Positions 3,818 through 64,000 of a stretch of DNA of 64,000 bases are shown in pieces (the first letter of the stretch is position 1; each line of letters opens with the position of its first letter). Position numbers and translations under genes: made by a program. The notes beneath the pieces were generated by a model, which did no database searches, was not told where the DNA came from, and saw nothing but the letters and a program-made list of their open reading frames with translations. Origin of the DNA: a virus (taxonomy: Duplodnaviria > Heunggongvirae > Uroviricota > Caudoviricetes); IMG/VR virus record IMGVR_UViG_3300050821_002544; one strand, given 5' to 3'.

Positions 3818-4675
3818 TTATAACGCTCCTACGTATTGTGCTACTGCATTCATATCACCATGGAATGCATATGTTCCAACATGATGAGTCTTCATCCATG
3901 GACATAGATAAATCTTTCCACCCATATTTCTCCATTGCTGGCAGAAGAAATAATCTTCTGATAGATAACGATCAGAGCCACCAACCTGCTTATCTGTCCC
4001 ATCTTCTAATGTAATTGTTCTTGCACGATCTACAATACAATCAAAATATGCATGAATATAACGAGTTCCATCAAAATTCGCTTGACCTACATGGTCTGGT
4101 TTATATGAATAATGAGGATATTGTGTTGCCCACTTAGGGAATACTTCTCTCTTAATCATCATGAAACCAGTTCCTAGTTCCATTACTTCTAGTGGCTCAC
4201 CCACTGCAAACTGACCAGTTCCAGCAACTGCATTGAATACATAATCACCAGTAACTTTCTCTAATTCTGCTGGAGTAATATCTGGCTTGCGCTTTAATGC
4301 CTCAATAACAGAACCCCATTTAATAGATTTCTTAGGATATGGTGCACCTATGACTTCCTTATCCAATGCAAGCATTGCAATAACGTCACGAGGATCGAAA
4401 TGGATATCTGCATCAAGAAACAAAAGATGCGTCATCGGAGAACGCAAAAACTCATCGCAAAGATAATTTCTTGCACGAGTTATTAGAGATTCATTAAAGA
4501 TGAATGAGAAACGGCATTCAATACCGTATTGAGCGCAAATACCTTGAAGGTCAAGGCAGGACTTCATATACATTCCGTTACAGCTACCCCCATACATTGG
4601 GGTCGCCACAAAAAGTTTGCGTTTTCTTAATTCTTCTACAGAAATTTCCAATTGCATTTTATAATCCTCATTCAA
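3818..4675 (-). CDS. Putative GT-A fold glycosyltransferase
   Basis: 285 aa. N-terminal FVATPMYGG resembles the GT2-type start; a DxD motif sits in LLFLDADIHFDP. Confidence 0.5.
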   Translation of the reverse strand: MNEDYKMQLEISVEELRKRKLFVATPMYGGSCNGMYMKSCLDLQGICAQYGIECRFSFIFNESLITRARNYLCDEFLRSPMTHLLFLDADIHFDPRDVIAMLALDKEVIGAPYPKKSIKWGSVIEALKRKPDITPAELEKVTGDYVFNAVAGTGQFAVGEPLEVMELGTGFMMIKREVFPKWATQYPHYSYKPDHVGQANFDGTRYIHAYFDCIVDRARTITLEDGTDKQVGGSDRYLSEDYFFCQQWRNMGGKIYLCPWMKTHHVGTYAFHGDMNAVAQYVGAL

Positions 4676-4706
4676 TCTAATATAGGGAAGGGTCGTTTTA
4701 TATAGT

Positions 4707-4745
4707 CATCCTCATAGGATAGAAGCACAAAAGGGAAGAGGAATT
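4707..4745 (-). terminator. Hairpin terminator downstream of the HTH gene
   Basis: Imperfect dyad aagggaagagg...ttccctcttccct followed by a T-rich tract on the minus strand. Confidence 0.4.
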
Positions 4746-4785
4746 TTATTCCCTCTTCCCTCTTATTTCTTACTTTATAGTAAGA

Positions 4786-5076
4786 TTATGCCGCACGCTT
4801 AGAAAGCGACTTCACAGCGATAGCTGTGCGACCGGCATTCAGATTGCGTAGGAAACGCTCGCTAGGAGTACCTAGACGATAAAAGCTGATCTTACGACCA
4901 TCTTCTAGAGTCTTAGTATTCGTATAGATGGAGAAACCATCCTGACGCAACTCGTTAATACGAGCAGACACATTCACAATACCGAAACGTGCCTGTGCTT
5001 GCGCGACAGTCAACGTGTTGTATACTGGGTTGAAAAAATAGTTCAACAACTTTGATCTTACAGACAACTTACTCAT
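4786..5076 (-). CDS. Putative HTH DNA-binding protein (96 aa), GC-elevated gene
   Basis: Helix-turn-helix-like LTVAQAQARFGIVNVSARINELRQDG. The gene is about 50% GC against a window background of about 35%. Confidence 0.5.
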   Translation of the reverse strand: MSKLSVRSKLLNYFFNPVYNTLTVAQAQARFGIVNVSARINELRQDGFSIYTNTKTLEDGRKISFYRLGTPSERFLRNLNAGRTAIAVKSLSKRAA

Positions 5077-5180
5077 TTAAAAACCTCAAATTAAACACTG
5101 CTATTCAAATCATCTTTGGGATGCAGCACTTCCCACTTGAGATACCAGTATACAGTACTGTTCTTTAATTGTCAAGTAAA

Positions 5181-6788
5181 TCAAACTATTGGACGATAAT
5201 CCTGATTAATCCCCGAATTATGGTCAGCCTTTGCCTTATTAGCACCTACCAGAAGATCAAGAAATTGACCTTCATTTTTTTCAGCAAATGAGCTAATAGC
5301 ATTATTACTAATGCGGCTTTCCTTGCCATGACTCGATACAACATAATCACTTGTAACTTCATCATATGTCACAGAAACGATAGTATTATACTTTGTAGAG
5401 ACTTCGAACAAAGTTTTAGGACTTGCAAATTTTGGCAATTGCGCTGGTGACGGAACTTTTGCCTTTGTGGCAAAACGGTTCGAATCAGGCTTTACTGCCG
5501 CAGGAATATTAAAAGTAGAATTATTTGATGAAGATGGAGCAACCGCATTAATTGAGGGAGGACCACCGGCTACAGGCGTAGTAGTTGCCTTTGTCTTTGC
5601 CGATGCATTCTTAAGAATGGTAGCAAAATCATCAGGAGATTGAGATGTAGATGATACCGTTGCAGCAACATTTATCCCATCATCGAATTTATTGTACAAA
5701 TCAAGAAAACTACGTTTTGTTTCTGTATCAAAACGATTCAAACACAATTCTACGGCAATCTGACGATCTTCAAAAATCGAATATGCCTTAGTAATATGTG
5801 TAAGACGACGAGTAGAAATGATTTCATCAATTCCACCATCTGCAAAAAGCTTACGAATGTTTCCAGCCCAATCAATCAGAATATCGATAAACGGAGCATC
5901 ATCAATAGACAAACTATTAAACAATCGTGCAAGAATATTACGTTCTGCTTTTGCATCCGGATATTCCTGTTCGACAGTAATTGCAAAACGCTCAAGGAAC
6001 GCTTCATTCAATGTATTAGTTCCAATAAAACGACCGTCTTCGCTACCCTTTCCTTTAGTGTTAGCAGTCGCCATAATATTAAAACCCTCAACCGGATGAA
6101 CAACTTCGCCCGTTCTCTTATTGAAGTATGGCTTGCCCTCTAGAATGGGTTGTAAGCAAAGGAGACGTTCAGTGCCAAGGTCAGTTTCATCAAGCAATAG
6201 AATTGCACCCCTACGCATTGCGGTGATAACCGGACCCTCACGCGGGACCGTATTACCATCCACCAAATCACTAGAACCAATTAGATCAAATTCATCCGTA
6301 TCTTTTGTAATATTCACACGGATATATTCACGCCCAATATTGGCACAAACCTGTTCTACCATCAATGTCTTACCATTGCCAGAAAGACCAGTAATATAGA
6401 CAGGATAAAAAATCTTCGATTCTATGATCTTCTTTAGTTTATTATAAAAACCGAATGGAACATATAGCGGGTCTTTTTCAGGAATAAGACTACCTTCAAT
6501 ATTCGAAGCAAGTACTTTTTGTACTGCCTCAGAAATAGGGGTTACGGTTGCCAATGTATCATCCTTTTGAGAAACTGTATCTTCATCTGCCGCGACGCGG
6601 TATTTACCAAATCCCTCTTCGAATTTTTTGGTAAAAATGAATTTAGGATACGGAAGCTTATTTGCTTTCACGTATTCATTAATCTGACGTTTAGAAACTA
6701 CCGAAATTTGATAAAATTCAGCAATACCATTACAGAACTCGGCTTGCTCAGAAGTCAGTTCTATACCTTTAATCTTCACTTTATTCAT
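5181..6788 (-). CDS. cobS: MoxR/CobS-like AAA+ (AAA_5) ATPase with Ser/Thr/Pro-rich C-terminal extension
   Basis: Walker A ITGLSGNGKTLMV and Walker B ILLLDETDLG. The first ATG of the ORF-track ORF (6797) overlaps the -10 TATAAT, so the start is placed at MNKVKIKG (6788), 7 nt after the -10. Confidence 0.75.
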   Translation of the reverse strand: MNKVKIKGIELTSEQAEFCNGIAEFYQISVVSKRQINEYVKANKLPYPKFIFTKKFEEGFGKYRVAADEDTVSQKDDTLATVTPISEAVQKVLASNIEGSLIPEKDPLYVPFGFYNKLKKIIESKIFYPVYITGLSGNGKTLMVEQVCANIGREYIRVNITKDTDEFDLIGSSDLVDGNTVPREGPVITAMRRGAILLLDETDLGTERLLCLQPILEGKPYFNKRTGEVVHPVEGFNIMATANTKGKGSEDGRFIGTNTLNEAFLERFAITVEQEYPDAKAERNILARLFNSLSIDDAPFIDILIDWAGNIRKLFADGGIDEIISTRRLTHITKAYSIFEDRQIAVELCLNRFDTETKRSFLDLYNKFDDGINVAATVSSTSQSPDDFATILKNASAKTKATTTPVAGGPPSINAVAPSSSNNSTFNIPAAVKPDSNRFATKAKVPSPAQLPKFASPKTLFEVSTKYNTIVSVTYDEVTSDYVVSSHGKESRISNNAISSFAEKNEGQFLDLLVGANKAKADHNSGINQDYRPIV

Positions 6789-6795
6789 ACCTGAC

Positions 6796-6801
6796 ATTAT
6801 A
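6796..6801 (-). promoter_or_regulatory. -10 box TATAAT of cobS promoter (TGTATAAT, leaderless arrangement)
   Basis: Minus-strand gctgTATAATgtcaggtATG. Confidence 0.5.
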
Positions 6802-6842
6802 CAGCATTTCGTTTAGAAGTATAGTATAATATACTTAATAGT

Positions 6843-6870
6843 ATCAATGACTTACATTAAGTACTTGATT
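6843..6870 (-). repeat. PeSL-like stem-loop element copy 1
   Basis: atcaatgacttacattaagtacttgatt; matches the consensus AATCAATGACTTACGCTAA-N5-TGATT. Confidence 0.6.
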
Positions 6871-9286: not shown

Positions 9287-9293
9287 AGCGAGT

Positions 9294-9321
9294 ATTATAC
9301 GCTAATCAAAAAATATAGCAA
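9294..9321 (-). promoter_or_regulatory. Early sigma70-like promoter TTGCTA-N16-TATAAT for the cobT-like gene
   Basis: Minus-strand TTGCTAtattttttgattagcgTATAATactcgctATG. The ATG is 7 nt after the -10, predicting a leaderless mRNA. Confidence 0.6.
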
Positions 9322-9339
9322 TTAGAATAATCCTAATAA

Positions 9340-9366
9340 AATTAATGACTTACGCTAAATGATTGT
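9340..9366 (-). repeat. PeSL-like stem-loop element copy 2
   Basis: aattaatgacttacgctaaatgattg. Confidence 0.6.
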
Positions 9367-10056
9367 ATTTGCAGTAAATTTAAGAAATTGACCAGGATCA
9401 GCAACATTACTATCTGGTGTCATTTTCTTTCTTGCGTCTAGTGCTACTTTTTCCATTGCCTTACGAATAATTTCTTGTTTCTCTTGTTCTATTTTTTGTC
9501 TATTAAGAATCTTAATGTTCTTATAGACTTTCTTCTTCTGACGTTCAAGAATCATTTTAGGAACTTTTGATGTATAAACGATACCTTCCATATGATCGTA
9601 TTCATGGAGTATGATGCGCGCCGATAGACCAGAAAAAGTCTGTTCCTTAAATTCTCCATTCATATCCTGATATTTTATCTTAACAGATTCAGGACGCCTA
9701 ATAGGTAGAAACAAACCAGGAAACGTAAGACAACCTTCTTCAAATCCTGTCTCGCCAGTAGTTTCTAGAATCTCGGGATTAAAAAAGGCATAGCCGACAC
9801 CCTCTGAACCCATGACGAATACTCGCAAAGGAATACCACATTGATTAGCAGCAAGCCCAATACCATTACGTGCCTTCATAGTCTCAATCAATGATACTGC
9901 TAATTCACGTGCCAGAACAGGCGTGCGCGGCTGAAAAGTATCTACAAATCTAAACTCTTCTGTCTTCTGAGTTAGTATAGGATCAAATTTATCTACAAGA
10001 GGATAAATCTCATAACTATACATCTCACCATTTACATACTTAAGCAGCTTTCCCAT
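9355..10056 (-). CDS. def: Peptide deformylase with about 60-aa Lys/Glu-rich C-terminal extension
   Basis: Motifs GIGLAANQCG, EGCLTFPG and HEYDHMEG are the three PDF signature motifs. 233 aa. Confidence 0.88.
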   Translation of the reverse strand: MGKLLKYVNGEMYSYEIYPLVDKFDPILTQKTEEFRFVDTFQPRTPVLARELAVSLIETMKARNGIGLAANQCGIPLRVFVMGSEGVGYAFFNPEILETTGETGFEEGCLTFPGLFLPIRRPESVKIKYQDMNGEFKEQTFSGLSARIILHEYDHMEGIVYTSKVPKMILERQKKKVYKNIKILNRQKIEQEKQEIIRKAMEKVALDARKKMTPDSNVADPGQFLKFTANTII

Positions 10057-10333: not shown

Positions 10334-10341
10334 TTCGACTC

Positions 10342-17662: not shown

Positions 17663-17992
17663 TTAAGCTACGTTTCCTGCTGTGCCAGTCTTTGGAGGTA
17701 ACATTGAAAATGCATTCGCAGTAACAGTGGTAGTTCTCATAGGTTGATTCTTCTTAGGCTGTACTGGACCATTATACTTGAACACATGACCCTTATATTC
17801 TACTACAGGATTCTTGTCTAGTTTTGCATCTTCTGTAAGAATCTGTTGACGAGTTCCTACAAGATATAATCTACGACCGGCTTCATCGAAGAATTGAGTT
17901 TTGAATGCATCAGTAGGAAGATACCATTCTTCAATCTGATTGATTCCGGTTGGACCTTCATTTCCAATATATTTTACTGCTACTAGTGACAT
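17663..17992 (-). CDS. Hypothetical protein (109 aa)
   Basis: Complete ORF in the structural region. Confidence 0.4.
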   Translation of the reverse strand: MSLVAVKYIGNEGPTGINQIEEWYLPTDAFKTQFFDEAGRRLYLVGTRQQILTEDAKLDKNPVVEYKGHVFKYNGPVQPKKNQPMRTTTVTANAFSMLPPKTGTAGNVA

Positions 17993-18002: not shown

Positions 18003-18689
18003 TTATTTTAGGTTAAAAATACCTGGACCAAATGCATCAGAAAAAATTCCTTCAACAATTTGACTTTCAATTAAATTTTGTTGGGTAAATTCTGGTGATC
18101 TAGATGTTGTACTTGCTTTTGTTATAAAATCAAAATTATTTATATAATAGTTAGGTACCTTACGTTTCATAGCATTATATGCATAAATCCAAAGATCACC
18201 AACGAATATCTTAAGAGTTATTGGTATAGGACAAAATGCTTTTTTATGAAAAAACATCAACATACCATAATCACGAGGATACTTAATATTGGGTTCTAAT
18301 GCAACTGTTAATTCGATTTTTTTATCTAAAATTGACCCCATTTCTCCAATATAACAATTTGGACCTATTCCAAATATACCATTATCCGGTATTATGTATT
18401 CATTTATTTGTTCAAAGATATTTGTATGAAAAATTGTATCATCACTTAAAAAACAAATCTTATCAAATTTCGATTGACTAACACCATACGTCCACGCCGG
18501 ATTTACAAAAATATTAGGACCGCTGTATATAGTTCTAATTTTTGGGTGTTTTAGAACTCTAGTTTTAGATGGATCGTTGTTTATTAATAGTAATTCACCT
18601 ATTAGCGGATTATCTAGTATTTTTTGTCTTCCTATCATAATATCTAGAGCATGAGAACGCCACATTGTGGGACAAATTACACTAAACAT
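18003..18689 (-). CDS. GT2-like glycosyltransferase, paralog A
   Basis: VICPTMWRS...LLINNDPSKT...NIFVNPAWTYGVSQSKFDKICFLSDD. Paralogous to 55639-56247 (VIIPTMWRS...FLINNDAAKT...NIYVNPAFNIGVKHSHFDHIVLLQDD). DD(DxD-like) motif present. Confidence 0.55.
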   Translation of the reverse strand: MFSVICPTMWRSHALDIMIGRQKILDNPLIGELLLINNDPSKTRVLKHPKIRTIYSGPNIFVNPAWTYGVSQSKFDKICFLSDDTIFHTNIFEQINEYIIPDNGIFGIGPNCYIGEMGSILDKKIELTVALEPNIKYPRDYGMLMFFHKKAFCPIPITLKIFVGDLWIYAYNAMKRKVPNYYINNFDFITKASTTSRSPEFTQQNLIESQIVEGIFSDAFGPGIFNLK

Positions 18690-19513
18690 TATGAAAGATA
18701 TTCTATTAAACCAACATAAACATTTGATGTGCCACCCGATCTATTATCCCAAAAATAAGCTCCATACCACGTGTTGGCTTCTCCACTACCAGGACCGCCA
18801 GATGAATCATAATGGTTAACTTGTATGGTATGAGACACACTAAGATAATTATCTACTTCTGTATTCATTGTACCATAACCCCAAATAAAATGATTATTTG
18901 CTGGACCAAATATATCTAATAAATTGGTGGTTGTGTTACTTGTATTTGTTGAGCAAATTGCTATATTTGCATTGGTTCCTGTACTTATTACAGTGACTAG
19001 TATTTCTCCGATTATATAGGGTGGAGCTACTTGAGGACTAGGAGCTACGGAATAAGGTCCGGTTGGATAACCCGGATAACCATTATATTGCGCGCCACTA
19101 TTATTAGCTTCCCAAGCTAACATATCAGCATATGCATTAGATTGAGTTATAATATTATTATTACCAAATAATACTGAATCACTAATATTACCATTCGCGC
19201 CAACATGTATACTTAGATCGTATGAAGGCAGGTTCAATTGTCCAACTTGAATTGATAATGTTATTCTAACTATATCACCAACAGATAAAGTATTGGCACC
19301 TAAAAATAAAGGTGGACCTATCAAAGATGCTGTATTTCCAATATGGGTAATACCACCATTTGATGTAGAAGAATATGATGTTATATTAGGTAAATCATTA
19401 GCTACTAATGTTCTGAATGCTGGTTGTCCAGTAGAACCATCAGGAGATGCCAATACTAAATTCTTAGTTTGATCTGCGAAAATTGTCATAGAATACCTAT
19501 TAAAAACAGGCAA
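18689..19513 (-). CDS. Virion structural protein (274 aa; Asn/Ser/Thr/Gly-rich)
   Basis: Composition is fibre/decoration-like. In the structural cluster, 1-nt overlap with the glycosyltransferase gene. Confidence 0.5.
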   Translation of the reverse strand: MPVFNRYSMTIFADQTKNLVLASPDGSTGQPAFRTLVANDLPNITSYSSTSNGGITHIGNTASLIGPPLFLGANTLSVGDIVRITLSIQVGQLNLPSYDLSIHVGANGNISDSVLFGNNNIITQSNAYADMLAWEANNSGAQYNGYPGYPTGPYSVAPSPQVAPPYIIGEILVTVISTGTNANIAICSTNTSNTTTNLLDIFGPANNHFIWGYGTMNTEVDNYLSVSHTIQVNHYDSSGGPGSGEANTWYGAYFWDNRSGGTSNVYVGLIEYLS

Positions 19514-19568: not shown

Positions 19569-20075
19569 TTATGAAGCTTCTGTAATTGTACAAGTTTCAA
19601 ATATAACACTAGCATTTTGACCAGAACCAGCTAGTGCATACACAGAAATGTTTGCTGCATTTGCAGTCATGGCTGCATTTACTGCACCATTTGAACCCAA
19701 TACAGCAGAAGTGCCTAGAGCACCTTGCGGATGCATTACTAATCCACTGAATACAGCATTTCCACCAACACCAGTATTGCCACGTAGAGTAATAGCAGCA
19801 TCAAATGCAAATTGACCGGCTTGTGCAGGTGGTGGTGGATATATTACAGTAGATGTTACTAATGGATCAGCAGATGTGCCATTAGAACCAGCATATACGT
19901 TAATAAGAATTGATGGAGGGTATGTTGAACTTCCAAATACGCCAGGGGCAACAAACCCGCCAGCAGCTACACGATATACAGAACCATTAGCATTTGAATT
20001 TGCTACAACCTTTGATGAAAAAACAAGAATCTGAGAGTTGCTATTTGCAACGACTTCTGAGGTTAAACCTGGCAT
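19569..20075 (-). CDS. Virion structural protein (168 aa; Gly/Ala/Ser-rich)
   Basis: Bracketed by two near-identical terminator hairpins, immediately downstream of gp23. Confidence 0.5.
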   Translation of the reverse strand: MPGLTSEVVANSNSQILVFSSKVVANSNANGSVYRVAAGGFVAPGVFGSSTYPPSILINVYAGSNGTSADPLVTSTVIYPPPPAQAGQFAFDAAITLRGNTGVGGNAVFSGLVMHPQGALGTSAVLGSNGAVNAAMTANAANISVYALAGSGQNASVIFETCTITEAS

Positions 20076-20163: not shown

Positions 20164-20194
20164 ACAAAGAAAAAGCCCACGTCTTAGGTGGGCT
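20164..20194 (-). terminator. Rho-independent terminator after gp23
   Basis: Minus-strand agcccacCTAAGACgtgggcTTTTTCTTTG. Confidence 0.75.
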
Positions 20195-20228
20195 CCGTTC
20201 AGTTTTTATAGACTGAATCTTCTTCTAT

Positions 20229-42453: not shown

Positions 42454-42462
42454 AATAAGAGT

Positions 42463-42490
42463 ATTATACACTGTGCAGTGAATATAGCAA
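42463..42490 (-). promoter_or_regulatory. Early promoter TTGCTA-N16-TATAAT
   Basis: Minus-strand cTTGCTAtattcactgcacagtgTATAATactcttattATG. Confidence 0.6.
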
Positions 42491-42508
42491 GAAAACAAAA
42501 TATAATAA

Positions 42509-55235: not shown

Positions 55236-55511
55236 TCAACATTCCTTCATATAATTGAGCTTTGCGCTCGGATTCAATTCTGACAATTCTTTGGCTAACC
55301 TCATGGCATTAGCAGATTCTTTAAATGATTCATAGATCACTCCATCTAAGAATACTCCCCACATCAGACATTTAGGCTTAAACCTGAATACCGGCAGGAC
55401 TGTAATGTATTTCATATTTTGGACATGGCTACTGCAAATAAGAAGAATATTTAATAAAATCCACATCAAAGCCGACACACCGAGTGTAAAGGAAACTTTC
55501 CTTAATGTCAA
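55236..55511 (-). CDS. Hypothetical protein with N-terminal TM helix (91 aa)
   Basis: Small ORF. Confidence 0.35.
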   Translation of the reverse strand: MTLRKVSFTLGVSALMWILLNILLICSSHVQNMKYITVLPVFRFKPKCLMWGVFLDGVIYESFKESANAMRLAKELSELNPSAKLNYMKEC

Positions 55512-55638
55512 GTATTCTGTTGCATTGCAGCAAATATATCATCTATTCGTGATAGAATCTCTTTACGCTTTTCTTTTTCTTTTTTGAATATCCCATCAAA
55601 TTGTGCATGACCACTAGTTGCAGATGGCTTGGATGTCA

Positions 55639-56247
55639 TCAATAAAAGATTATGAATAAAGAGCGAACGTAATCCTTTTTAATATGCACATTGTTGATCC
55701 ATTCTTCACCATAATGAATTAGTAGTTCTTCATCAATTGGTATCCAATTGGATTTATGGAATATCATCATCATACACCAACCATAAGGTAAATCATCTTT
55801 TTCACACAATTTGTCTAATTTAGGAAGGGCATCAAAATATATTAATTTTATATCTTTTGCAGGTATTATTTTAAGAGTTTCTGCTGCTTGTGTCATAATA
55901 TTTAAAGGATTAATACCTATCAGTCCTGTTTGTGGTGTAATATAATCATGAATAATTGTTAAGACTGTTGGATCGAATAGTATATCATCTTGCAATAGCA
56001 CAATATGATCGAAATGTGAATGTTTTACACCAATATTAAATGCAGGATTCACATATATGTTCTGTCGTGGTGTATACATCTTAACTTTCTTTAAGAATTG
56101 AGATGTATTCATATACCAGCCAGGGGTTTTAGCCGCATCGTTATTGATTAAAAAAATCTCTCCCACCGATGGACAGATATCCAAAAGTGGAAGAGAATGT
56201 TGTAGCTCATTACTGCGCCACATTGTAGGTATGATTACTGTGTACAT
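55639..56247 (-). CDS. GT2-like glycosyltransferase, paralog B
   Basis: Paralog of 18003-18689 (VIIPTMWRS...FLINNDAAKT...LLQDDILFDP). Immediately upstream (in transcription) of nothing structural but adjacent to gp17. Confidence 0.55.
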   Translation of the reverse strand: MYTVIIPTMWRSNELQHSLPLLDICPSVGEIFLINNDAAKTPGWYMNTSQFLKKVKMYTPRQNIYVNPAFNIGVKHSHFDHIVLLQDDILFDPTVLTIIHDYITPQTGLIGINPLNIMTQAAETLKIIPAKDIKLIYFDALPKLDKLCEKDDLPYGWCMMMIFHKSNWIPIDEELLIHYGEEWINNVHIKKDYVRSLFIIFY

Positions 56248-56289
56248 AATATAAATGTGAATTAAATTTCTTTATTAATTATACCAGTA

Positions 56290-58002: not shown

Positions 58003-58465
58003 CTAATTCATCACTTTCGGTTGTTTGATTCTTTTGAGTAGATCGCATCATTTCTAATAATTGTGTCGTAGTCCCAGAAAATACTGCTTTATCAATATAC
58101 ACATTTCCCGTCATTTGTCCAGAAGAAACATTACCACTCAATTTCTGTTTATCTTGATGTATCTTTAATAGCTTATCCACATTATCTGATTGAATCTTGA
58201 GTAATTGTCCTAATACTTCGAATGCACGAGGATGCTGAGATTCTGTGGCAAGATTCAATGCCATATCTACTGCTTCTGATCCCTTTTGGATGATTTCAAT
58301 AGCATTGGTACGAGCATAATCCGCATCGGTCGCTATTTGGTTATTGGACGCAATAGGAGCCGGTATGAGAGGCTTTGATTCTCGTGGTGTTGGTAGGCTA
58401 GGGGTTGGCGCTCCCAAGGCTTCTGCAAGCGCTGCATCGGCATTAGATGATGTATACTTTTTCAT
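57995..58465 (-). CDS. 16: Putative terminase small subunit gp16
   Basis: 156 aa, immediately upstream of and overlapping gp17. Size and position match T4 gp16; no strong motif. Confidence 0.5.
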   Translation of the reverse strand: MKKYTSSNADAALAEALGAPTPSLPTPRESKPLIPAPIASNNQIATDADYARTNAIEIIQKGSEAVDMALNLATESQHPRAFEVLGQLLKIQSDNVDKLLKIHQDKQKLSGNVSSGQMTGNVYIDKAVFSGTTTQLLEMMRSTQKNQTTESDELDD

Positions 58466-58476
58466 AATAGTATTAT

Positions 58477-59226
58477 TTATCCACCAACGGTACCGTATAT
58501 GAATCCATCTAGCGATGCATACACTAGATTACCGGTTGCAATTGGGAAATCGGCAATGATTTGCATTGCACCATTGGCACAAACGTTCCAGGTTACATAT
58601 GCAGACGTATTCGTTCCAAGAATCGTATCATTTGCAGCAGGAGCAATGAAAAGAGATGCATTGGCAGGAGTAGGTAAACCATTAGCAATGTTCACATTCA
58701 AAGCAGAAGAAAAAGATAGATTTGCTGCTGGTTTCAATACGCCACGAATATGAACAATACCAAATGGGTCTTTCCAGAAGCTAGGTGGATTATAGTTAGT
58801 TAATGCTGCATATGAGGCATTGAGTGTAGCATTGGTCCATACAGGAATGAATGAAATACTATTTACTGTGATATTTGCACATGTGATATTTTTTGTAACA
58901 GATAGATTACCGGTAAATGTATTTTGTGTGACTAATAGATTTCCTGTATTTGCAATATTGGCAGTAACATTCAATGAACCGGCAATATTAACAGCACCAT
59001 TATGTGTGAATGTTGTAGTATTGACAACTACAGAAGTTTGCGCAATATTAAATATAATATTACCATTGGATGTAATACCAATAGCATTGGTTGTGATTAG
59101 GAATAGACCGGCATTAGTCTGTGCACCAAATGTATATGCAGGAGCAGTAACAGTTCCATTTGCTTCTAGTATTTGTCCTGTTACATTCAGTGTACCACCA
59201 ACATTGCTTGCTAATAAAATTGCCAT
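58477..59226 (-). CDS. Fibre-like structural protein (249 aa; Asn/Thr-rich, about 14 N-x-S/T sequons)
   Basis: Repetitive NVT/NIT/NLS composition typical of beta-helical fibres. Confidence 0.5.
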   Translation of the reverse strand: MAILLASNVGGTLNVTGQILEANGTVTAPAYTFGAQTNAGLFLITTNAIGITSNGNIIFNIAQTSVVVNTTTFTHNGAVNIAGSLNVTANIANTGNLLVTQNTFTGNLSVTKNITCANITVNSISFIPVWTNATLNASYAALTNYNPPSFWKDPFGIVHIRGVLKPAANLSFSSALNVNIANGLPTPANASLFIAPAANDTILGTNTSAYVTWNVCANGAMQIIADFPIATGNLVYASLDGFIYGTVGG

Positions 59227-59234
59227 AATATTCC

Positions 59235-60266
59235 TTAATAAGTAGTGATTACCACGATTAATCCACCACCGCCATTTCCACCATTACCACCTTGAGTAGC
59301 CGCAGACGCTCCACCACCACCACCGCCAGAACCTAATCCACCCTGACCACCGTTTCCACCATTACCGGTAAAGTTTCCACCACCACCACCAGCAGAAGAA
59401 CCAACATCATAGAATGATGAATTAGCACCATTACTACCAGGATTTGCACCTAAACCACCGCCACCAGGAGTTGTAAGACAAGTATATGTTGCGCAACCAG
59501 GACCACCGGCAAAACCAGCAGTTGCACTGACCGCACCACCCGCGCCGCCACCGACTCCACCACCACTACCTATATTACCGCTACCTGTTCCACCTGCGCC
59601 GGTACCATTAGGACAGCCTCCACCACCAGAACCTGCATTTGGTCCATTGGCATTATTACCGTTACCACCAGTACCACCGGCACCCGCGCCATTACCGCCT
59701 ACAATTCCACCTGTAGCACTGCCATTACCACCATTGACACCATATGCTGCACCCGCGCCGCCACCAGAAGTAGTATTAGAACCACCACCACCACCTGCAC
59801 CACCAGCATTTGCAGTTACCCATGGAGTAGTTCCGAATGTTGATATGGTTCCTGGACTACCAGATGTTCCTGCTCCAGTACCGGCACTTCTACCTGCTCC
59901 ACCGGCACCACCAATACCAACATTAGCATTTTCTGTTGCATTCAATGTTGCAGTAGGAATCTGAACATCTTTCTTAAATCCACCACCACCGCCACCGCCA
60001 CCAGAAGCAGTAGTACCTGATGCCACGTTGGCACCACCACCACCACCACCACCAGCACCAATAATAATAATTCTTGTAGAAACAGGACTGCCAGGAGGCT
60101 TAGTCCATACACCATTGGATGTGAATATTTGCACATTTGCAATCGGGTTGACAGTTAATAAAGTCGTAGCAATAAGAGTATTGGTAACATTAAGATTTGC
60201 TGTTATTAATGTATTTCCTCCTACTGTTAGTGGACCACCTATTTCTAATTGTGTTGGTTGTGTCAT
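59235..60266 (-). CDS. Glycine-rich structural protein (343 aa)
   Basis: Long poly-Gly/GGxG tracts (IIIGAGGGGGGGANVASG...). N-terminal fibre-like region. Confidence 0.5.
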   Translation of the reverse strand: MTQPTQLEIGGPLTVGGNTLITANLNVTNTLIATTLLTVNPIANVQIFTSNGVWTKPPGSPVSTRIIIIGAGGGGGGGANVASGTTASGGGGGGGGFKKDVQIPTATLNATENANVGIGGAGGAGRSAGTGAGTSGSPGTISTFGTTPWVTANAGGAGGGGGSNTTSGGGAGAAYGVNGGNGSATGGIVGGNGAGAGGTGGNGNNANGPNAGSGGGGCPNGTGAGGTGSGNIGSGGGVGGGAGGAVSATAGFAGGPGCATYTCLTTPGGGGLGANPGSNGANSSFYDVGSSAGGGGGNFTGNGGNGGQGGLGSGGGGGGASAATQGGNGGNGGGGLIVVITTY

Positions 60267-61189
60267 TATTGGATACTCCCTTGTTCGTTAAATTGTGCAG
60301 CGTATATATTGTTACTACTATCTATTCGTGCTGTTGCACCTATACTAGATGTTTCTATAAAAGAATTAGCATACCATACGCCAGATGATATTGCATTTGC
60401 TTTGACACTCGCTATTTCAATCATACCCAAAGTCATGAATGTACCATTTGCATTTATTCTACCGATAATCAGTGGAGTATTGGAAGATGGTATACCTTGT
60501 ACTATTACAGAAACTACAGCAATATCTGCCGCCGCGCTGCCTTGTTGATTCCAACGTGCTGTATAGGTTCCGGCAGTAGTAATAGTCTGCGATGCAAATG
60601 CCGCTAGATTACCACCAGAACCAAAATTCCAACATGCCGCAATATTAACTAATGGAGAAACAGGAGTTGGTTGATCTGTCTCTACCGAACCAGATGTATT
60701 CAATGCTAGAGAATACATAATGCATGGTAGGTTAGCAGTAACAACTACAATAGGACCAGAATTAATATTATTAGAACCAGATGCTAATCCATTCTGTGTA
60801 TTACCAGAGAAACCTACTAATGAAGTTCCATTGGCATTACCCACATCTATAATTAAACATGCCTGAAAATCTTCTACGTCACCACCGATGGTAAATTGAC
60901 ATATTACATTAGTAGTACCGCCAGGACTATTATTAGATAACCCTGCATATAGAGTCGCAGCACCACCCGAAGGATTAGTATTCTGTTCTGCACTCAATTG
61001 ATAATTATTTGCCTTGTTATCATTAATAATTACATCTGCATGTATACCAGCAGCATCAGATAATGTTGCAAATGCAATAATAGTATTTCCAACACCTACT
61101 GTATTGACAAATGTTGCCTGAGTATTATGTGCCTGAACGGCACCAGGACCATTCTGAATAACATATTGAGCAGTAATAGGATTTGCCAT
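60266..61189 (-). CDS. Fibre/receptor-binding-like structural protein (307 aa)
   Basis: Asn/Gly/Ser/Thr-rich composition, in the fibre gene array. Confidence 0.45.
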   Translation of the reverse strand: MANPITAQYVIQNGPGAVQAHNTQATFVNTVGVGNTIIAFATLSDAAGIHADVIINDNKANNYQLSAEQNTNPSGGAATLYAGLSNNSPGGTTNVICQFTIGGDVEDFQACLIIDVGNANGTSLVGFSGNTQNGLASGSNNINSGPIVVVTANLPCIMYSLALNTSGSVETDQPTPVSPLVNIAACWNFGSGGNLAAFASQTITTAGTYTARWNQQGSAAADIAVVSVIVQGIPSSNTPLIIGRINANGTFMTLGMIEIASVKANAISSGVWYANSFIETSSIGATARIDSSNNIYAAQFNEQGSIQ

Positions 61190-61190
61190 A

Positions 61191-62471
61191 TTAGTTCGCG
61201 TATACCATAAAATCTAATGCAGTTGCAGTAGCATTATATGATATTGAAAATCTTGAATTAGAATTAGAGTTTGCCTGACCACCACCGAATAGTAATTGAT
61301 TACCATTTGCCACACGCACATTAGAATCAATACTAGTCAAATTAGCGGCAGTATTGAATGATAGATTAGTGGCACCACCAAATGCACCGTTGTTGTTATA
61401 TTGAATCTGACCATTGGCACCGCCAGGTGTGCCGCCTCCACCAGCAGGAACCTGAGTATCAAAGGTAATCGTTGTATTGCCTGGAGTTGTATTAGTTGAA
61501 CCAACAATAGAAAGATTGGATGTATTGGCAGACACAATATTTACATTCTGTGAATTACCTATAGCACTGCCATTCACAAATATATTGACATTATATGCTG
61601 CCGTAGCAGTAGTATTCATAGTGGCAAATGTGGAATTTACAGTACCAAATGTAGTATTAGTAGTACCAAATGTGGTATTAATAGTACCAAAGTTGGCATT
61701 CATTGTACCTAATGATGTATTAATAGCAGGGATACCTAATGCTGTTCCATTGGCATTCCATGAAACATTGGATTGTGTTGTACCATTGGCAACAACAGAT
61801 ACATTCATAGTTGCTGTATTGTTCCAGTTTATATTACTAGATGCTAATACTATTGTTCCATTGGCATAAGTAGATACTTGAGTCGATGCTAGATTAGCAA
61901 CTGCATAGGCAAGATTGGCTTGTGTATAGGCAGCATTAGCCTGACCATATGCAGTTGCTAATCCTGTTCCACCAATAACATTTCTAATTTCAACAAGATC
62001 ATTTAGATTGCTATTTGCTGTCAACGTGACAGTTACATTACCACTGATATTATAATCTACTATTGGTTCTTGAACAGCACCGTTAATAATAACAAATACA
62101 TTATTTGGATCAGAAATATTTGATGTTGCTGTAAATATAGATTGATTTACAGTAGCAGTAAATCTGTCACTCAATAGGGTTGTAGGCGTTCCATTTGGTC
62201 CAGGAGTAGGTGGAGTACGCATATCGATAGTAATGGTCACATTACCAGGATTTGTATTTGATGTTCCTGTAATGCTAATATTGGATGTATTGCCAGATAC
62301 AAAGTTAATATTAGGTGAATTAGCAACAATTGTGCCTGCTACAAATACACCACCATTAGCTAATAATGATACTGCATTGACATTAGTCAGGTTTCTATTA
62401 GAATCAATAATAATAGTATTAGCAATATCAATGCCATTCTTGACAGAGAATGTCTTATTTGTTGTACCCAC
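61191..62471 (-). CDS. Fibre-like structural protein with internal duplication (426 aa)
   Basis: Internal repeat NINFVSGNTSNISITGTSNTNPGNVTITID vs NVNIVSANTSNLSIVGSTNTTPGNTTITFD. Shares a segment with the next ORF. Confidence 0.5.
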   Translation of the reverse strand: MGTTNKTFSVKNGIDIANTIIIDSNRNLTNVNAVSLLANGGVFVAGTIVANSPNINFVSGNTSNISITGTSNTNPGNVTITIDMRTPPTPGPNGTPTTLLSDRFTATVNQSIFTATSNISDPNNVFVIINGAVQEPIVDYNISGNVTVTLTANSNLNDLVEIRNVIGGTGLATAYGQANAAYTQANLAYAVANLASTQVSTYANGTIVLASSNINWNNTATMNVSVVANGTTQSNVSWNANGTALGIPAINTSLGTMNANFGTINTTFGTTNTTFGTVNSTFATMNTTATAAYNVNIFVNGSAIGNSQNVNIVSANTSNLSIVGSTNTTPGNTTITFDTQVPAGGGGTPGGANGQIQYNNNGAFGGATNLSFNTAANLTSIDSNVRVANGNQLLFGGGQANSNSNSRFSISYNATATALDFMVYAN

Positions 62472-62509
62472 GGTTCACTTATCCCCGATAGTCTATTTGA
62501 ATATTTAGG

Positions 62510-64000
62510 TTAGATATTCAATGAGTATCTTGTAGTGTTAATTACTGTGGATGTTGCATTGTTTGCAGTAAACAATAACTGTACATTACCGGCAGCAATT
62601 GCTGCCGTCAAAGATCCAACAGGACCATTAGTTAGAATAGTAGAATATTCATCCAAGTATACATTTGTACCATCATTGACAACCAATATTTTCGTAATAT
62701 AGAATGATGATTTACAATTTGCCTGAATTAGATATTCGGCAGTACCGAATGCAGTAGCAGAGAAATTATCTAACGCAGTCTGAGATACTGTAGCAACTGT
62801 CTGTTGTACTGTATTGATAGAAAACACACCAACATTAATAGCACCGCTAACACCAACATTACCGGTAAATATATTACCAAATACACCATTTTGAGAAACG
62901 AGAATATTACCGGTATTAGAAATATTACCAGATACATTCAGACTCGTTAGATTCAATGTTGCATTGACAGTAGGTGTAACATTAACACCATTAGTACCAT
63001 TTGCTGTGACTGTGATAACTATAGATGCACTGTTTAGGAATACTAAGTTAGGTGTGGCAGCAAGAACCGATCCAGCATTAGAATAAACATTGACAGAACT
63101 TCCGGAAGGTAATGCTGCCGTGTTTACAACAAAAGATACATTGGTCTGATTTGTACCATTTGCTGATGCAGTCACATTGACTGTTGAAGTATTATTAAAG
63201 TTTAAATTACCAGCAGCAAGTGTAAGTGTTCCATTGGCAAATACAGCAACCGTATTGGCAGCAGCATTTGCAGCAGCATAAGAAGATCCGATCCATGATG
63301 CTACATTAATAGCACCTAGAGTAATTTGCTGAGCGATGACATTCGCATTAAGTGTCGCAACGTTTGTCTGTGCTGTATTAATGGTTGCGGGATATGCATT
63401 CATTAGTGCATAGCCTTCGAACAAATGCCATGTTTCGTCAGCAGCATGACGGATCAAACCGGAGTACACATTTGCCTGTGCAGTATTCTTAGAAAGTGTT
63501 GCAAAACCAGAATCGATAGAATCTGCAAAATTATTGGATGCAAGCATGATGTACTGATCGTTAGTTTGTACAGAAGATGCATTCAATGTAATAGTAGTAC
63601 CATTGACAATCAGATTACCGGCAACGGTTAACTGTCCATTAATCTGACCAGCAGCAGCAGTTAATAGAGTTGTTGCAGTTAGATTGGCAGCAGAGATATT
63701 TCCACCAGTAGTATTCTGAGTAATTGTTAGATTACCGACTGCAATATTACTTGCAACATTCAATGTTGTAACATTAGCTAATGTAGATACAGATAGATTA
63801 CCAGTAGAAGTATTCTGAGTAACCGCAAGATTACCTGTGCTGGTATTCTGAGTAGATGTAATAGCACCTGTTGTAAACGTAACAGCATTCAAAGATGCAA
63901 TATTAGCTAATGTAGATACAGATAAATTACCGGTAATAGTATTCTGAGTAACTGCAAGATTACCGGTAAAGCTATTTTGTGTGACTAGTAAATTACCTGC
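62510..64000 (-). CDS. Large fibre-like structural protein, N-terminally truncated by the window end
   Basis: The reading frame stays open upstream of the ORF-track start (that start is TTG) to position 64000. Repeated TGNLAVTQNTxTGNLSVSTLAN units. Confidence 0.5.
   Translation of the reverse strand, partial: AGNLLVTQNSFTGNLAVTQNTITGNLSVSTLANIASLNAVTFTTGAITSTQNTSTGNLAVTQNTSTGNLSVSTLANVTTLNVASNIAVGNLTITQNTTGGNISAANLTATTLLTAAAGQINGQLTVAGNLIVNGTTITLNASSVQTNDQYIMLASNNFADSIDSGFATLSKNTAQANVYSGLIRHAADETWHLFEGYALMNAYPATINTAQTNVATLNANVIAQQITLGAINVASWIGSSYAAANAAANTVAVFANGTLTLAAGNLNFNNTSTVNVTASANGTNQTNVSFVVNTAALPSGSSVNVYSNAGSVLAATPNLVFLNSASIVITVTANGTNGVNVTPTVNATLNLTSLNVSGNISNTGNILVSQNGVFGNIFTGNVGVSGAINVGVFSINTVQQTVATVSQTALDNFSATAFGTAEYLIQANCKSSFYITKILVVNDGTNVYLDEYSTILTNGPVGSLTAAIAAGNVQLLFTANNATSTVINTTRYSLNI

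What the first reader, a model, noticed from the sequence alone, without database searches (positions are those of the whole stretch)
3818..63892. Three GT-A glycosyltransferases (two paralogs) together with extremely sequon-dense Asn/Thr-rich fibre proteins
Three GT-A-like enzymes are encoded:
- paralog A (18003-18689) sits inside the structural module next to two structural proteins;
- paralog B (55639-56247) sits directly beside terminase and the fibre-gene array;
- a third GT-A-like enzyme lies at 3818-4675.

The fibre-like proteins (58477-59226, 60266-61189, 61191-62471, 62510-64000, 18689-19513) are packed with N-x-S/T sequons. The 249-aa protein alone has about 14.

This raises the hypothesis that the virion fibres are glycosylated by phage-encoded enzymes, which is rare for bacteriophages. 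Alternatively the glycosyltransferases modify host surface glycans or DNA.
Basis: partly seen in the sequence, partly recalled or inferred. Interest (0 to 1): 0.55.

Follow-up and report, generated by a model that had tools for sequence, protein, structure and literature searches.

The report
Phage glycosyltransferases linked to fibre genes
An uncultured T4-like marine phage carries three real sugar-adding enzymes that, in related phages, are fused into one giant enzyme encoded next to fibre genes, which suggests but does not prove that these phages coat their fibres with sugars; the "N-x-S/T sequon" argument first offered for this does not hold.

Summary
The three genes are genuine GT-A-fold glycosyltransferases. 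GT-A (18003-18689) and GT-B (55639-56247) are old paralogs (34% identity) of a distinct GT2-like family. GT3 (3818-4657) belongs to a very abundant separate family (phrog_1574).

The sequon argument fails. N-x-S/T exceeds shuffles in only three fibre proteins, and the reversed motif S/T-x-N is equally enriched. This is a period-2 beta-strand pattern in Asn/Thr-rich proteins. No N-glycosylation enzyme type is present.

Comparative genomics gives independent support for a GT-fibre link:
- In 48 of 80 related IMG/VR loci (26 lineages), an A/B-type and a GT3-type domain are fused in a multi-domain ORF (22 of them at least 1300 aa): GT-B fold, GT2, A/B-type, GT3-type, FkbM methyltransferase.
- That ORF lies directly downstream of Gly-rich lectin-domain or collagen-repeat proteins, near neck genes gp13-15.
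- GT-A's slot between the major capsid gene and gp3 is conserved, always beside a small uncharged S/N/G-rich protein.

Best reading (about 0.4): a dispersed glycan-assembly set that O-glycosylates virion surface proteins. DNA glycosylation and host-envelope modification remain live rivals. GT-B carries a 1-nt frameshift that removes its conserved C-terminus.

The parts
3818..4657 (-). GT3: GT-A-fold glycosyltransferase of the phrog_1574 family (279 aa from ATG 4657; the TTG at 4675 is probably not the start)
   Evidence: PHROG E=2.6e-57. More than 8000 homologs, the top ones 66-85% identical. AF2 pLDDT 77. Foldseek hits to LH3, COLGALT1 and A64R; BFVD TM 0.7 to uncultured Caudovirales GT-A proteins. 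Invariant D82-x-D84 and E234-D235-Y236. Sits between an HTH_39 gene and dNMP kinase in the replication module.
18003..18689 (-). GT-A: GT2-like GT-A-fold glycosyltransferase (228 aa), paralog of GT-B
   Evidence: AF2 pLDDT 90.4. Foldseek hits to WrtF, TarP, TarS and ppGalNAc-T at E~1e-8. D83-D84 motif. The slot gp23-orf-GT-gp3 is conserved in L013, L017, L050 and L052.
18689..19489 (-). F274/266: Asn/Ser/Gly-rich protein of unknown function. Its stop overlaps the GT-A start (TAATG).
   Evidence: Overlap read directly. No Pfam, PHROG, PDB or GenBank-phage match. Absent from the relatives that keep the GT in this slot.
19569..20075 (-). orf168: small, nearly charge-free S/N/A/G-rich protein conserved immediately upstream of the GT in the gp23-gp3 slot. 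Candidate acceptor or partner.
   Evidence: 47% identity to the 153-aa ORFs of L013, L050 and L052, and 30% to L017. No family match.
17663..17992 (-). orf109: unknown ORF between GT-A and the gp3-like gene
   Evidence: No family match. Not present in L013-type relatives.
55639..56247 (-). GT-B: paralog of GT-A (202 aa as an ORF), 42 nt downstream of the large terminase
   Evidence: BLASTP to GT-A 34% identity, E=2e-28. Weak Pfam Glycos_transf_2, E=0.0066. The homolog in L004 is also directly after the terminase.
55508..55680 (-). Frameshifted conserved C-terminus of GT-B. The A5 run at 55676-55680 is the shift site.
   Evidence: The -1 frame encodes ...LLLMTSKPSATSGHAQF..., matching the family C-terminus. 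Adding one A gives a 246-aa protein that aligns end to end with P0002 and P0003.
58477..59226 (-). F249: Asn/Thr-rich fibre-like protein that shares repeat modules with F497
   Evidence: 13 sequons against 6.1 expected, but 14 reversed motifs. Shared segments with F497, E=2e-7. No family match.
59235..60266 (-). F343: Gly-rich (up to 50% Gly) uncharged protein
   Evidence: Composition. Sequons not enriched, z=0.8. No sequence homology to the Gly-rich neighbours of the giant GT.
60266..61189 (-). F307: Asn/Ser/Thr-rich protein
   Evidence: Sequons below expectation, z=-1.0. Only a weak PKD hit.
61191..62471 (-). F426: Asn/Thr-rich fibre-like protein
   Evidence: 29 sequons against 16.7 expected, 22 reversed. 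A 72-aa domain is shared with the 345-aa ORF directly downstream of the giant GT in L027, L033 and L044 (E=4e-6).
62510..64000 (-). F497+: tail-fibre-like protein, open at the window end
   Evidence: The C-terminal ~85 aa are 36.6% identical (E=3e-8) to the annotated tail-fibre-like protein of Synechococcus phage S-SM2. Five GN[LI]x[VI][ST]xN repeats.

Best explanation
The window comes from an uncultured T4-like marine myovirus. It encodes a dispersed set of soluble, cytoplasmic glycan-building enzymes: GT3, GT-A and GT-B in the window, plus a further GT2 and a CmcI-like sugar methyltransferase just beyond the window start. I propose that they act one after another, each adding a sugar from a nucleotide-sugar donor, to build a short and probably O-methylated oligosaccharide on one shared acceptor. 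The most likely acceptor is one or more uncharged, Ser/Thr/Asn/Gly-rich virion surface proteins: the fibre array upstream of the terminase, and F274 and orf168 beside GT-A. The linkage is more likely O-linked to Ser/Thr than N-linked at N-x-S/T.

Shown here: the fold and motifs of the enzymes, the paralogy, the fusion of the two families in related phages, and the neighbourhood of that fusion.

Inferred: that the window's separate genes work together, that the acceptor is a virion protein, and the type of linkage.
For: 1. GT-A fold and DxD motifs are present in both families.
2. Fusion: 48 of 80 IMG/VR loci carry a multi-domain GT ORF of at least 600 aa that includes an A/B-type domain; 22 of these are at least 1300 aa.
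   - The A/B-type domain is 36-38% identical to GT-A (E to 5e-41).
   - It is followed directly by a GT3-family domain (hhalign probability 98.0%, E=1.7e-13, 197 columns; control against A/B 1%).
   - These are flanked by Glycos_transf_1, Glycos_transf_2 and an FkbM methyltransferase.
   - The fusion also appears in an independent protein library and in BFVD.
3. Neighbourhood: the fusions fall into 26 groups (A/B-domain identity 38-100%, median 57%).
   - In 12 of 23 groups with a visible upstream gene, that gene is a large G/N/T/S-rich protein with a Laminin_G_3 lectin domain or collagen repeats (PF01391, E=2e-67).
   - gp15 and gp13/gp14 are nearby.
   - A protein sharing a domain with window F426 follows the fusion in three loci.
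4. The gp23-orf168-GT-gp3 arrangement is conserved in four other loci although the GT itself is only 38% identical, against 86% for gp23.
5. The F274 stop overlaps the GT-A start.
6. The fibre genes, the terminase genes and GT-B form one tightly packed co-directional block.
7. The enzymes are acidic and have no hydrophobic segments.
8. The same phage encodes a further GT2 and a CmcI-like methyltransferase.
9. Precedent: mycobacteriophage virion glycosylation (Freeman et al. 2023, as cited in PMC12619734 and PMC10877033).
Against: - There is no biochemical evidence.
- The GT3-type domain in the fusions is only 23-24% identical to window GT3, so the link is at family level and not between orthologs.
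- GT3 sits in the replication module behind a sigma-70-like promoter. About 20 loci place A/B-type genes between DNA polymerase and UvsX.
- Window F343 shows no homology to the Gly-rich neighbours of the fusion.
- F274 is absent from relatives that keep the GT.
- gp23 has no C-terminal extension of the kind glycosylated in mycobacteriophages.
- GT-B is frameshifted and may be inactive.
- The 80 loci are those most similar to GT-A out of 476, not a random sample.
- The fold hits do not discriminate between targets.
Confidence: 0.4

Rival explanations
1. Host-envelope or other non-virion glycoconjugate modification. The enzymes remodel host surface polysaccharide (LPS, O-antigen, capsule or S-layer glycans) during infection, for example to block superinfection or alter recognition. 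This is the usual assumption for glycosyltransferases of T4-like cyanophages.
For: - It is the standard interpretation in the cyanophage literature (PMC12801897).
- The best PDB matches of GT-A include polysaccharide-modifying enzymes: WrtF, the prophage wall-teichoic-acid transferase TarP, TarS and RmlT.
- Some family members sit in sugar-metabolism clusters with epimerases, a hexapeptide acyltransferase and a HAD/nucleotidyltransferase.
- A transmembrane coiled-coil protein recurs next to A/B-type genes in 18 loci.
Against: - The enzymes are soluble and acidic, and no flippase, polymerase or lipid-carrier transferase lies nearby.
- Placement in late structural blocks and next to fibre and neck genes is not expected for a host-surface function.
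- Sugar-nucleotide genes would be needed for any target.
Confidence: 0.22
2. DNA glycosylation. One or more of the enzymes, GT3 above all, transfer sugars to a modified base in phage DNA to evade restriction, as in T-even phages and the metagenomic GT-A DNA glycosyltransferases.
For: - GT3 lies between the DNA polymerase/CobS-like genes and dNMP kinase/clamp genes. This placement is conserved in the Ochrobactrum phage vB_OspM_OC.
- A near-consensus sigma-70-like promoter precedes the HTH39-GT3 pair.
- One to three tandem A/B-type genes sit between DNA polymerase and UvsX/gp41 in about 20 loci.
- DNA-modifying phage GT-A enzymes also hit TarP and PBCV-1 A64R and carry R...DxD...EDY-type motifs.
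Against: - No thymidylate-synthase-like hydroxymethylase, 5mYOX/TET or C5-methyltransferase was found among the ORFs scanned in the window or the 8.6 kb beyond it. Such genes usually cluster with DNA glycosyltransferases.
- Both families are acidic, median pI 5.9 and 5.2.
- A four-GT-plus-methyltransferase fusion next to fibre genes is not the pattern described for DNA pathways.
- The rest of the genome is unseen, so this absence is not conclusive.
Confidence: 0.2
3. No common pathway. The three genes are unrelated auxiliary glycosyltransferases with different targets. The proximity of GT-A and GT-B to fibre-like genes in this window is a by-product of insertion into variable regions between core genes. 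GT-B may be a decaying pseudogene.
For: - The three genes are 14-37 kb apart.
- GT-B is frameshifted.
- Family members occur in at least four different genomic contexts.
- F274 and orf109 are not conserved with the GT.
Against: - The recurrent fusion of the two families in 26 lineages and the conserved orf168-GT pair argue for functional coupling.
- The same frameshifted GT-B appears in another assembly, and the gene is otherwise intact.
Confidence: 0.13

Closest known systems
Mycobacteriophage virion glycosylation (Freeman et al. 2023, Cell Host Microbe; known here only through citing papers)
   Same: Phage-encoded glycosyltransferases proposed to decorate the phage's own virion proteins in the host cytoplasm. 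It is the only documented case in tailed phages.
   Different: - There the glycans sit on C-terminal extensions of capsid and tail-tube subunits. Here gp23 has no extension, and the candidate acceptors are fibre-like or small uncharged proteins.
- The phage group (T4-like marine myovirus) and the enzyme families are different.
- Nothing has been shown experimentally here.
Chlorovirus PBCV-1 A064R and giant-virus fibril/collagen glycosylation enzymes (PLOD-like GT domains, mimivirus L230/R699)
   Same: - Virus-encoded GT-A enzymes that glycosylate virion proteins.
- GT3 gives weak fold matches to A64R (E~1e-3), LH3, COLGALT1 and R699, and to Megavirus procollagen-lysine dioxygenase and PLOD-like GT domains.
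- The related giant phage protein combines several GT domains with a methyltransferase. From my own knowledge, A064R does the same on a smaller scale.
- The giant protein sits next to collagen-repeat proteins.
   Different: - TM-scores are low (0.3-0.44).
- The same PDB entries are also top hits for DNA-modifying phage GT-A enzymes.
- The window phage has separate genes, not a fusion.
- No lysyl or prolyl hydroxylase was seen in the window.
Phage DNA glycosyltransferases of GT-A fold (Pyle et al., bioRxiv 10.1101/2023.12.21.572611)
   Same: GT-A fold, TarP-like structural matches, frequent placement near DNA polymerase and helicase genes, and several GTs acting in series.
   Different: No associated hydroxymethylase, TET or C5-methyltransferase was found in the sequence available. 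The proteins are acidic. The fusion form sits next to fibre and neck genes.
Cell-wall/LPS modification genes of large T4-like cyanophages (P-SSM2, S-SCSM1, S-SCSM2R)
   Same: - Same broad phage group.
- A GT3-type gene is S-SCSM2R ORF96, listed among that phage's 'cell wall synthesis and modification' genes.
   Different: - That assignment is by annotation only.
- In S-SCSM2R and Sf-FS3 the gene lies beside a 2OG-Fe(II) oxygenase or prolyl-4-hydroxylase, a few genes upstream of the baseplate module. This fits protein modification at least as well.

Membership tests
GT-A-fold nucleotide-sugar glycosyltransferase (GT2-like) | Single Rossmann-like alpha/beta/alpha GT-A fold | tested here: met
   GT-A model pLDDT 90.4, Foldseek E~1e-8 and TM~0.6 to many GT2/GT27 structures. 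GT3 model pLDDT 77, E 3e-5 to GT-A domains and TM 0.7 to viral GT-A models. GT-B by 34% identity to GT-A.
GT-A-fold nucleotide-sugar glycosyltransferase (GT2-like) | DxD-type metal/nucleotide-binding motif conserved across the family | tested here: met
   A/B family: D84 invariant and D83 at least 90% conserved in 49 sequences. GT3 family: D82 and D84 invariant in 26 sequences.
GT-A-fold nucleotide-sugar glycosyltransferase (GT2-like) | Curated Pfam/NCBIfam model above its gathering threshold | tested here: not met
   Glycos_transf_2 16.8 bits against a cut-off of 23.3 (GT-B). No hit for GT-A. Anp1 22.8 bits against 28.8 (GT3). No NCBIfam hits. Some homologs do pass PF00535.
N-linked protein glycosylation at N-x-S/T (PglB-type OST or cytoplasmic NGT/HMW1C, GT41) | A sequon-reading enzyme: a multi-pass membrane STT3/PglB homolog, or a GT-B-fold GT41 enzyme | tested here: not met
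   The three enzymes are GT-A fold and have no hydrophobic segments. No such protein appears among the window ORFs scanned. The rest of the genome was not seen.
N-linked protein glycosylation at N-x-S/T (PglB-type OST or cytoplasmic NGT/HMW1C, GT41) | Directional enrichment of N-x-S/T (or D/E-x-N-x-S/T) in the proposed acceptors | tested here: not met
   Forward 69 against 41.3 expected and reverse 68 against 41.5 at spacing 2. D/E-x-N-x-S/T occurs 0-1 times per protein. Three of six proteins are not enriched at all.
Mycobacteriophage-type virion O-glycosylation | Phage-encoded glycosyltransferases present | tested here: met
   Three in the window, plus a GT2 and a methyltransferase on the same contig.
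Mycobacteriophage-type virion O-glycosylation | Glycan-bearing C-terminal extension on the capsid or tail-tube subunit | tested here: not met
   gp23 (452 aa) ends in a normal conserved C-terminus and is 86% identical to a relative of the same length. The tail tube was not examined in detail.
Mycobacteriophage-type virion O-glycosylation | Glycans detected on virion proteins | not testable with these tools
   Needs glycoproteomics or glycoprotein staining of virions.
Phage DNA glycosylation pathway | Enzyme creating the acceptor hydroxyl on a base (dCMP/dUMP hydroxymethylase, or C5-MT plus 5mYOX/TET) in the genome, usually nearby | tested here: inconclusive
   None among the annotated ORFs of the 64-kb window or the 8.6 kb beyond it. 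Many small ORFs and the rest of the genome (at least 138 kb) were not examined.
Phage DNA glycosylation pathway | Modified, glycosylated nucleosides in virion DNA | not testable with these tools
   Needs nucleoside LC-MS.
Multi-domain viral GT-GT-methyltransferase enzymes (A064R-like architecture) | Several GT domains and a methyltransferase in one polypeptide | tested here: not met
   The window genes are separate. The architecture is met in related phages only: for example L034:3925-7983, 1352 aa, with Glycos_transf_1, Glycos_transf_2, A/B-type, GT3-type and FkbM domains.

The most novel reading that the evidence does not exclude
T4-like aquatic phages, including very abundant marine lineages, glycosylate their own fibres or other surface proteins with an O-methylated oligosaccharide. 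The glycan is built by a conserved four-glycosyltransferase-plus-methyltransferase set. That set exists either as one ~1350-aa assembly-line protein encoded beside the fibre genes, or, as in this window, as separate genes scattered through the genome. This would make virion glycosylation a widespread property of environmental myoviruses, with consequences for adsorption, stickiness to marine particles or mucus, and grazing or immune recognition.
Probability: 0.35. Interest if true: 0.8.

Novelty: new variant of a known kind. Interest (0 to 1): 0.55.

Why it matters
Virion glycosylation by phage-encoded enzymes has been demonstrated only in mycobacteriophages. Glycosyltransferases of aquatic phages are routinely labelled 'DNA protection' or 'host surface modification' without any test.

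The analysis gives a concrete and testable link between two uncharacterised enzyme families and fibre genes:
- One family has more than 8000 close relatives in metagenomes.
- The other has 770 cluster representatives at E <= 1e-30.
- The two families are fused in one protein in 26 lineages, encoded beside fibre genes.

If the link is correct, a large share of marine and freshwater myoviruses carry sugar-coated fibres. That would bear on host recognition, particle attachment and virus decay in the ocean. If it is wrong and the target is DNA, these families would instead mark an unrecognised DNA hypermodification in abundant marine phages. Either outcome is informative, and the same two assays decide between them.

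Tried and rejected
- **Sequon selection.** Rejected by the reversed-motif and all-spacings controls.
- **'dpG-synthase-like' annotation of a GT3 relative.** Followed up and judged to be an automatic GT2 domain label with no functional information. This reading rests on my own recollection of the CDD DPG_synthase domain; the one paper found was not read.
- **Pfam, PHROGs and NCBIfam on the fibre-like proteins, F274, orf168 and orf109.** No hits. PDB sequence searches also gave nothing.
- **tblastn of GT-B, F249, F426 and F274 against GenBank phages.** No match.
- **Homology of F343 to the Gly-rich neighbours of the giant GT.** None found by BLAST or phmmer; only the composition is alike.
- **T4-type late promoters.** TATAAATA occurs only before gp19 and gp22, and even gp23 lacks it, so the motif cannot time the GT genes.
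- **Source names for homologs.** None informative.
- **Literature on the phiM12/phiM9 group.** No mention of DNA modification or glycosylation.
- **Freeman et al. 2023.** Full text not held.
- **AFDB50 fold search.** Unavailable, so similarity to the base-J glucosyltransferase could not be tested.
- **Other recurrent partners of the GT family** (TM coiled-coil protein, other GT-like clusters, NUC, NUDIX). Not encoded in the window.

Full report
**What the window is.** Nearly all genes lie on the minus strand. PHROG and Pfam annotation identifies a T4-like myovirus. Read along the minus strand, the gene order is:

- fibre-like ORFs (64000 down to 58477)
- small terminase (57995-58465) and large terminase (56290-58002)
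- GT-B (55639-56247)
- about 22 kb of small ORFs
- an SPFH protein
- sheath, tube, portal, prohead protease, scaffold and major capsid protein gp23 (20229-21587)
- orf168, F274, GT-A (18003-18689), orf109
- gp3-like, UvsY, UvsW, gp55, gp47, gp46
- peptide deformylase, DNA polymerase, a CobS-like AAA protein, an HTH_39 protein
- GT3 (3818-4657)
- dNMP kinase, sliding clamp, clamp loader

No close relative exists among GenBank phages; the best DNA match is 73% over part of gp23 to Synechococcus phage S-SCSM1. The same phage is present in ENA, JGI and Logan assemblies.

**Are the three genes glycosyltransferases?** Yes. Pfam alone is below threshold for all three.

- *A/B family.* A 49-sequence alignment gave an AlphaFold model of GT-A with pLDDT 90.4 and pTM 0.90. 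The model matches GT2-type GT-A enzymes at E about 1e-8 and TM about 0.6. These include WrtF, the prophage wall-teichoic-acid transferase TarP, TarS, B4GALNT1, RmlT and ppGalNAc-T2. GT-A and GT-B are 34% identical (E=2e-28). The family keeps an xDD motif: D84 is invariant and D83 is at least 90% conserved.
- *GT3.* The model is less confident (pLDDT 77). It still matches GT-A domains: LH3 and COLGALT1 at E about 3e-5, and PBCV-1 A64R at about 1e-3. It reaches TM 0.7 against predicted GT-A proteins of uncultured Caudovirales. D82-x-D84 and E234-D235-Y236 are invariant.
- *Physical properties.* Both families are acidic (median pI 5.9 and 5.2) and lack hydrophobic segments, so these are soluble cytoplasmic enzymes.
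- *Family sizes.* GT3 (phrog_1574) has more than 8000 close homologs. The A/B family has 770 representatives of 50%-identity clusters at E <= 1e-30, and none in GenBank phages.

- Three proteins (F249, F426, F460/497) exceed composition-matched shuffles (z about 3). F343, F307 and F274 do not.
- In the three enriched proteins, N followed by S/T at spacing 2 occurs 69 times against 41.3 expected (z=5.4). S/T followed by N at spacing 2 occurs 68 times against 41.5 (z=5.0). Spacing 4 is also enriched and odd spacings are depleted.
- That symmetric, even-spacing pattern is what alternating residues on beta-strands give. It fits the GN[LI]x[VI][ST]xN repeats in F249 and F497.
- Fibre-like proteins carry 4.1 sequons and 4.3 reversed motifs per 100 aa. 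Other proteins of the window carry 0.7 and 0.7.
- The extended bacterial sequon is nearly absent.
- From established knowledge, sequon-directed N-glycosylation in bacteria needs PglB or a GT41 NGT. Neither fold is seen here.

**Are the 'fibres' fibres?** Only partly shown.

- The C-terminal 85 residues of the last ORF match the annotated tail-fibre-like protein of Synechococcus phage S-SM2 (36.6% identity, E=3e-8).
- The ORFs share modules with each other.
- They sit where T4-like phages keep neck and fibre genes, and they are extremely poor in charged residues.
- No other homology was found.

**The comparative result.** I fetched 80 IMG/VR loci encoding relatives of the A/B family, out of 476 confirmed, and clustered their neighbours. 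Four contexts recur:

1. *The same slot as window GT-A.* The arrangement gp23, small ORF, GT, gp3, UvsY occurs in L013, L017, L050 and L052. The small ORF is homologous to orf168 (47% and 30% identity). gp23 is 86% identical while the GT is only 38% identical. F274 and orf109 are absent there.
2. *A replication context.* The order is DNA polymerase, then one to three tandem GTs, then a transmembrane coiled-coil protein, UvsX and gp41. This occurs in about 20 loci.
3. *Sugar-metabolism clusters.*
4. *Multi-domain ORFs.* In 48 loci the A/B-type domain is part of an ORF of at least 600 aa; 22 of these are at least 1300 aa.

The giant ORF L034:3925-7983 (1352 aa) contains five parts:

- Glycos_transf_1 (residues 191-342)
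- Glycos_transf_2 (446-581)
- the A/B-type domain (691-900; 36-38% identical to GT-A)
- a further GT-A domain (about 914-1125)
- an FkbM methyltransferase (1177-1333)

The fourth domain belongs to the GT3 family. hhalign of 21 such regions against the GT3 alignment gives 98.0% probability and E=1.7e-13 over 197 columns. The control against the A/B alignment gives 1%. The same fusion appears among representatives from an independent library and in BFVD. No cultured phage carries it.

The fusions fall into 26 groups with A/B-domain identity of 38-100% (median 57%). In 12 of the 23 groups with a visible upstream gene, that gene is a large protein rich in G, N, T and S. It carries either a ConA-like lectin domain or collagen triple-helix repeats. 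In several more groups such a protein lies two genes away. gp15, gp13 and gp14 are adjacent. In three loci, a protein sharing a 72-aa domain with window F426 follows the fusion.

**Interpretation.** A fusion of two families in many lineages is classical evidence that they act in one pathway. Four GT domains plus a sugar-type methyltransferase suggest stepwise assembly of a methylated oligosaccharide.

The window phage has the same kinds of parts as separate genes. These are GT3, GT-A and GT-B in the window. A GT2 and a CmcI-like methyltransferase lie a few kb beyond the window start.

Several features point to virion surface proteins as the acceptor:

- the position of the fusion beside fibre, collagen-like and neck genes
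- the conserved orf168-GT pair right after the capsid gene
- the stop-start overlap of F274 and GT-A
- the tight fibre-terminase-GT-B block

I hold this at about 0.4.

**Limits of that inference.**

- The link between window GT3 and the fused domain is at family level only (23-24% identity).
- GT3 itself sits in the replication module behind a sigma-70-like promoter.
- Context 2 places A/B-type genes among replication genes.
- Pyle et al. show that DNA-modifying phage GT-A enzymes give the same structural matches, TarP and PBCV-1 A64R. Fold similarity therefore cannot decide the target.
- Against a DNA target, no base-hydroxymethylating enzyme was seen in the 72 kb available, and the enzymes are acidic. 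Most of the genome, however, is unseen.
- Host-surface modification is the default reading in the cyanophage literature and cannot be excluded.

**Comparison with what is known.** The closest functional analogue is mycobacteriophage virion glycosylation, known here only through citing papers. Its hallmark is glycans on C-terminal extensions of capsid and tail tube, which is not seen here.

Architecturally, the giant fusion resembles the multi-domain GT-methyltransferase enzymes of giant viruses that glycosylate capsids or fibrils. GT3's weak matches to A64R, LH3, COLGALT1 and PLOD-like domains point the same way.

In cultured Synechococcus phages the GT3-type gene lies next to a 2OG-Fe(II) oxygenase or prolyl-4-hydroxylase, just upstream of the baseplate genes. 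This is suggestive, not proof.

**Verdict.** The sequon rationale is rejected. The underlying idea, that phage enzymes glycosylate fibre-like virion proteins, survives on different and better evidence but remains unproven. If true, it is a new variant of a known kind. Interest 0.55.

Noticed in passing
window 55508-55680 (minus strand), A-run at 55676-55680: GT-B is interrupted by a 1-nt frameshift at ATT AAA AAG G. The conserved family C-terminus continues in the -1 frame. Adding one A restores a 246-aa protein that aligns end to end with homologs and ends 4 nt into the next ORF. An independent assembly (P0001) has the same truncated end. The cause could be a real truncation, a homopolymer error shared by assemblies, or -1 frameshifting or transcriptional slippage on the Lys codons.
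   Followed up: partly
L034:3925-7983 and 47 other IMG/VR loci (for example L025, L028, L047, L081): A multi-domain protein occurs in uncultured T4-like phages (at least 600 aa in 48 loci, about 1350 aa in 22). Its domains are Glycos_transf_1, Glycos_transf_2, A/B-type GT, GT3-type GT and FkbM methyltransferase. It sits beside Gly-rich lectin-domain or collagen-repeat proteins and gp13-15. No cultured phage in GenBank carries it.
   Followed up: yes
cluster-2 Gly-rich proteins next to the giant GT (for example L064:235-2268, L081:69-3878): Unlike the window's fibres, these 21 proteins show a modest directional excess of N-x-S/T. Forward is 321 against 272 expected (z=3.3); the reversed motif is 259 against 272 (z=-1.0). 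The proteins are related to one another, so the z-score is inflated. Unexplained.
   Followed up: no
L001:19474-20822 (same phage, about 6-7.5 kb beyond window coordinate 1): A further Glycos_transf_2 gene (248 aa) and an overlapping CmcI/rhamnosyl-O-methyltransferase-like gene (205 aa). They follow a VWA-like protein with an S/T/A-rich tail. Homologs of both sit with A/B-type GTs next to DNA polymerase in other phages (L022, L058, L067, L072).
   Followed up: partly
window 3818-6797 and L007 (Ochrobactrum phage vB_OspM_OC): GT3 is syntenic with CobS/CobT-like AAA/VWA genes, peptide deformylase and the clamp genes across distant T4-like phages (marine, Ochrobactrum). In the window the CobS-like protein is a 538-aa AAA_5 protein with a CbbQ_C-like tail.
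   Followed up: no
L095 (S-SCSM2R ORF96-98) and L096 (Sf-FS3 gp73-76): In cultured Synechococcus myoviruses the GT3-type gene lies within two to three genes of a 2OG-Fe(II) oxygenase or prolyl-4-hydroxylase, and a few genes upstream of gp25/gp6. This pairing recalls hydroxylase-plus-glycosyltransferase modification of collagen-like proteins.
   Followed up: no
window 20172-20196 (minus strand): A strong intrinsic-terminator-like hairpin (9-bp stem, 5 G-C pairs, T-run) lies immediately after gp23. It separates the capsid gene from the orf168-F274-GT-A-orf109-gp3 string.
   Followed up: no
window, whole: ATAAATA occurs 8 times on the coding strand and once on the other. Full TATAAATA sits 20-26 nt upstream of gp19 and gp22 only, and the octamer is under-represented overall (4 found against about 10 expected).
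   Followed up: partly
window 31511-32473, 41977-42498, 9355-10056: Accessory genes: an SPFH/Band-7 protein just upstream of the sheath gene, a JAB/DUF4329 protein among the small ORFs, and a peptide deformylase between gp46 and the DNA polymerase.
   Followed up: no
loci L020, L037, L041, L048, L055, L061, L063, L065 and others: A/B-type GT genes are often present as two or three tandem paralogs directly after DNA polymerase B. A conserved N-terminal-transmembrane coiled-coil protein of about 324 aa usually follows. Fused tandem copies also exist (for example P0244, 469 aa).
   Followed up: no
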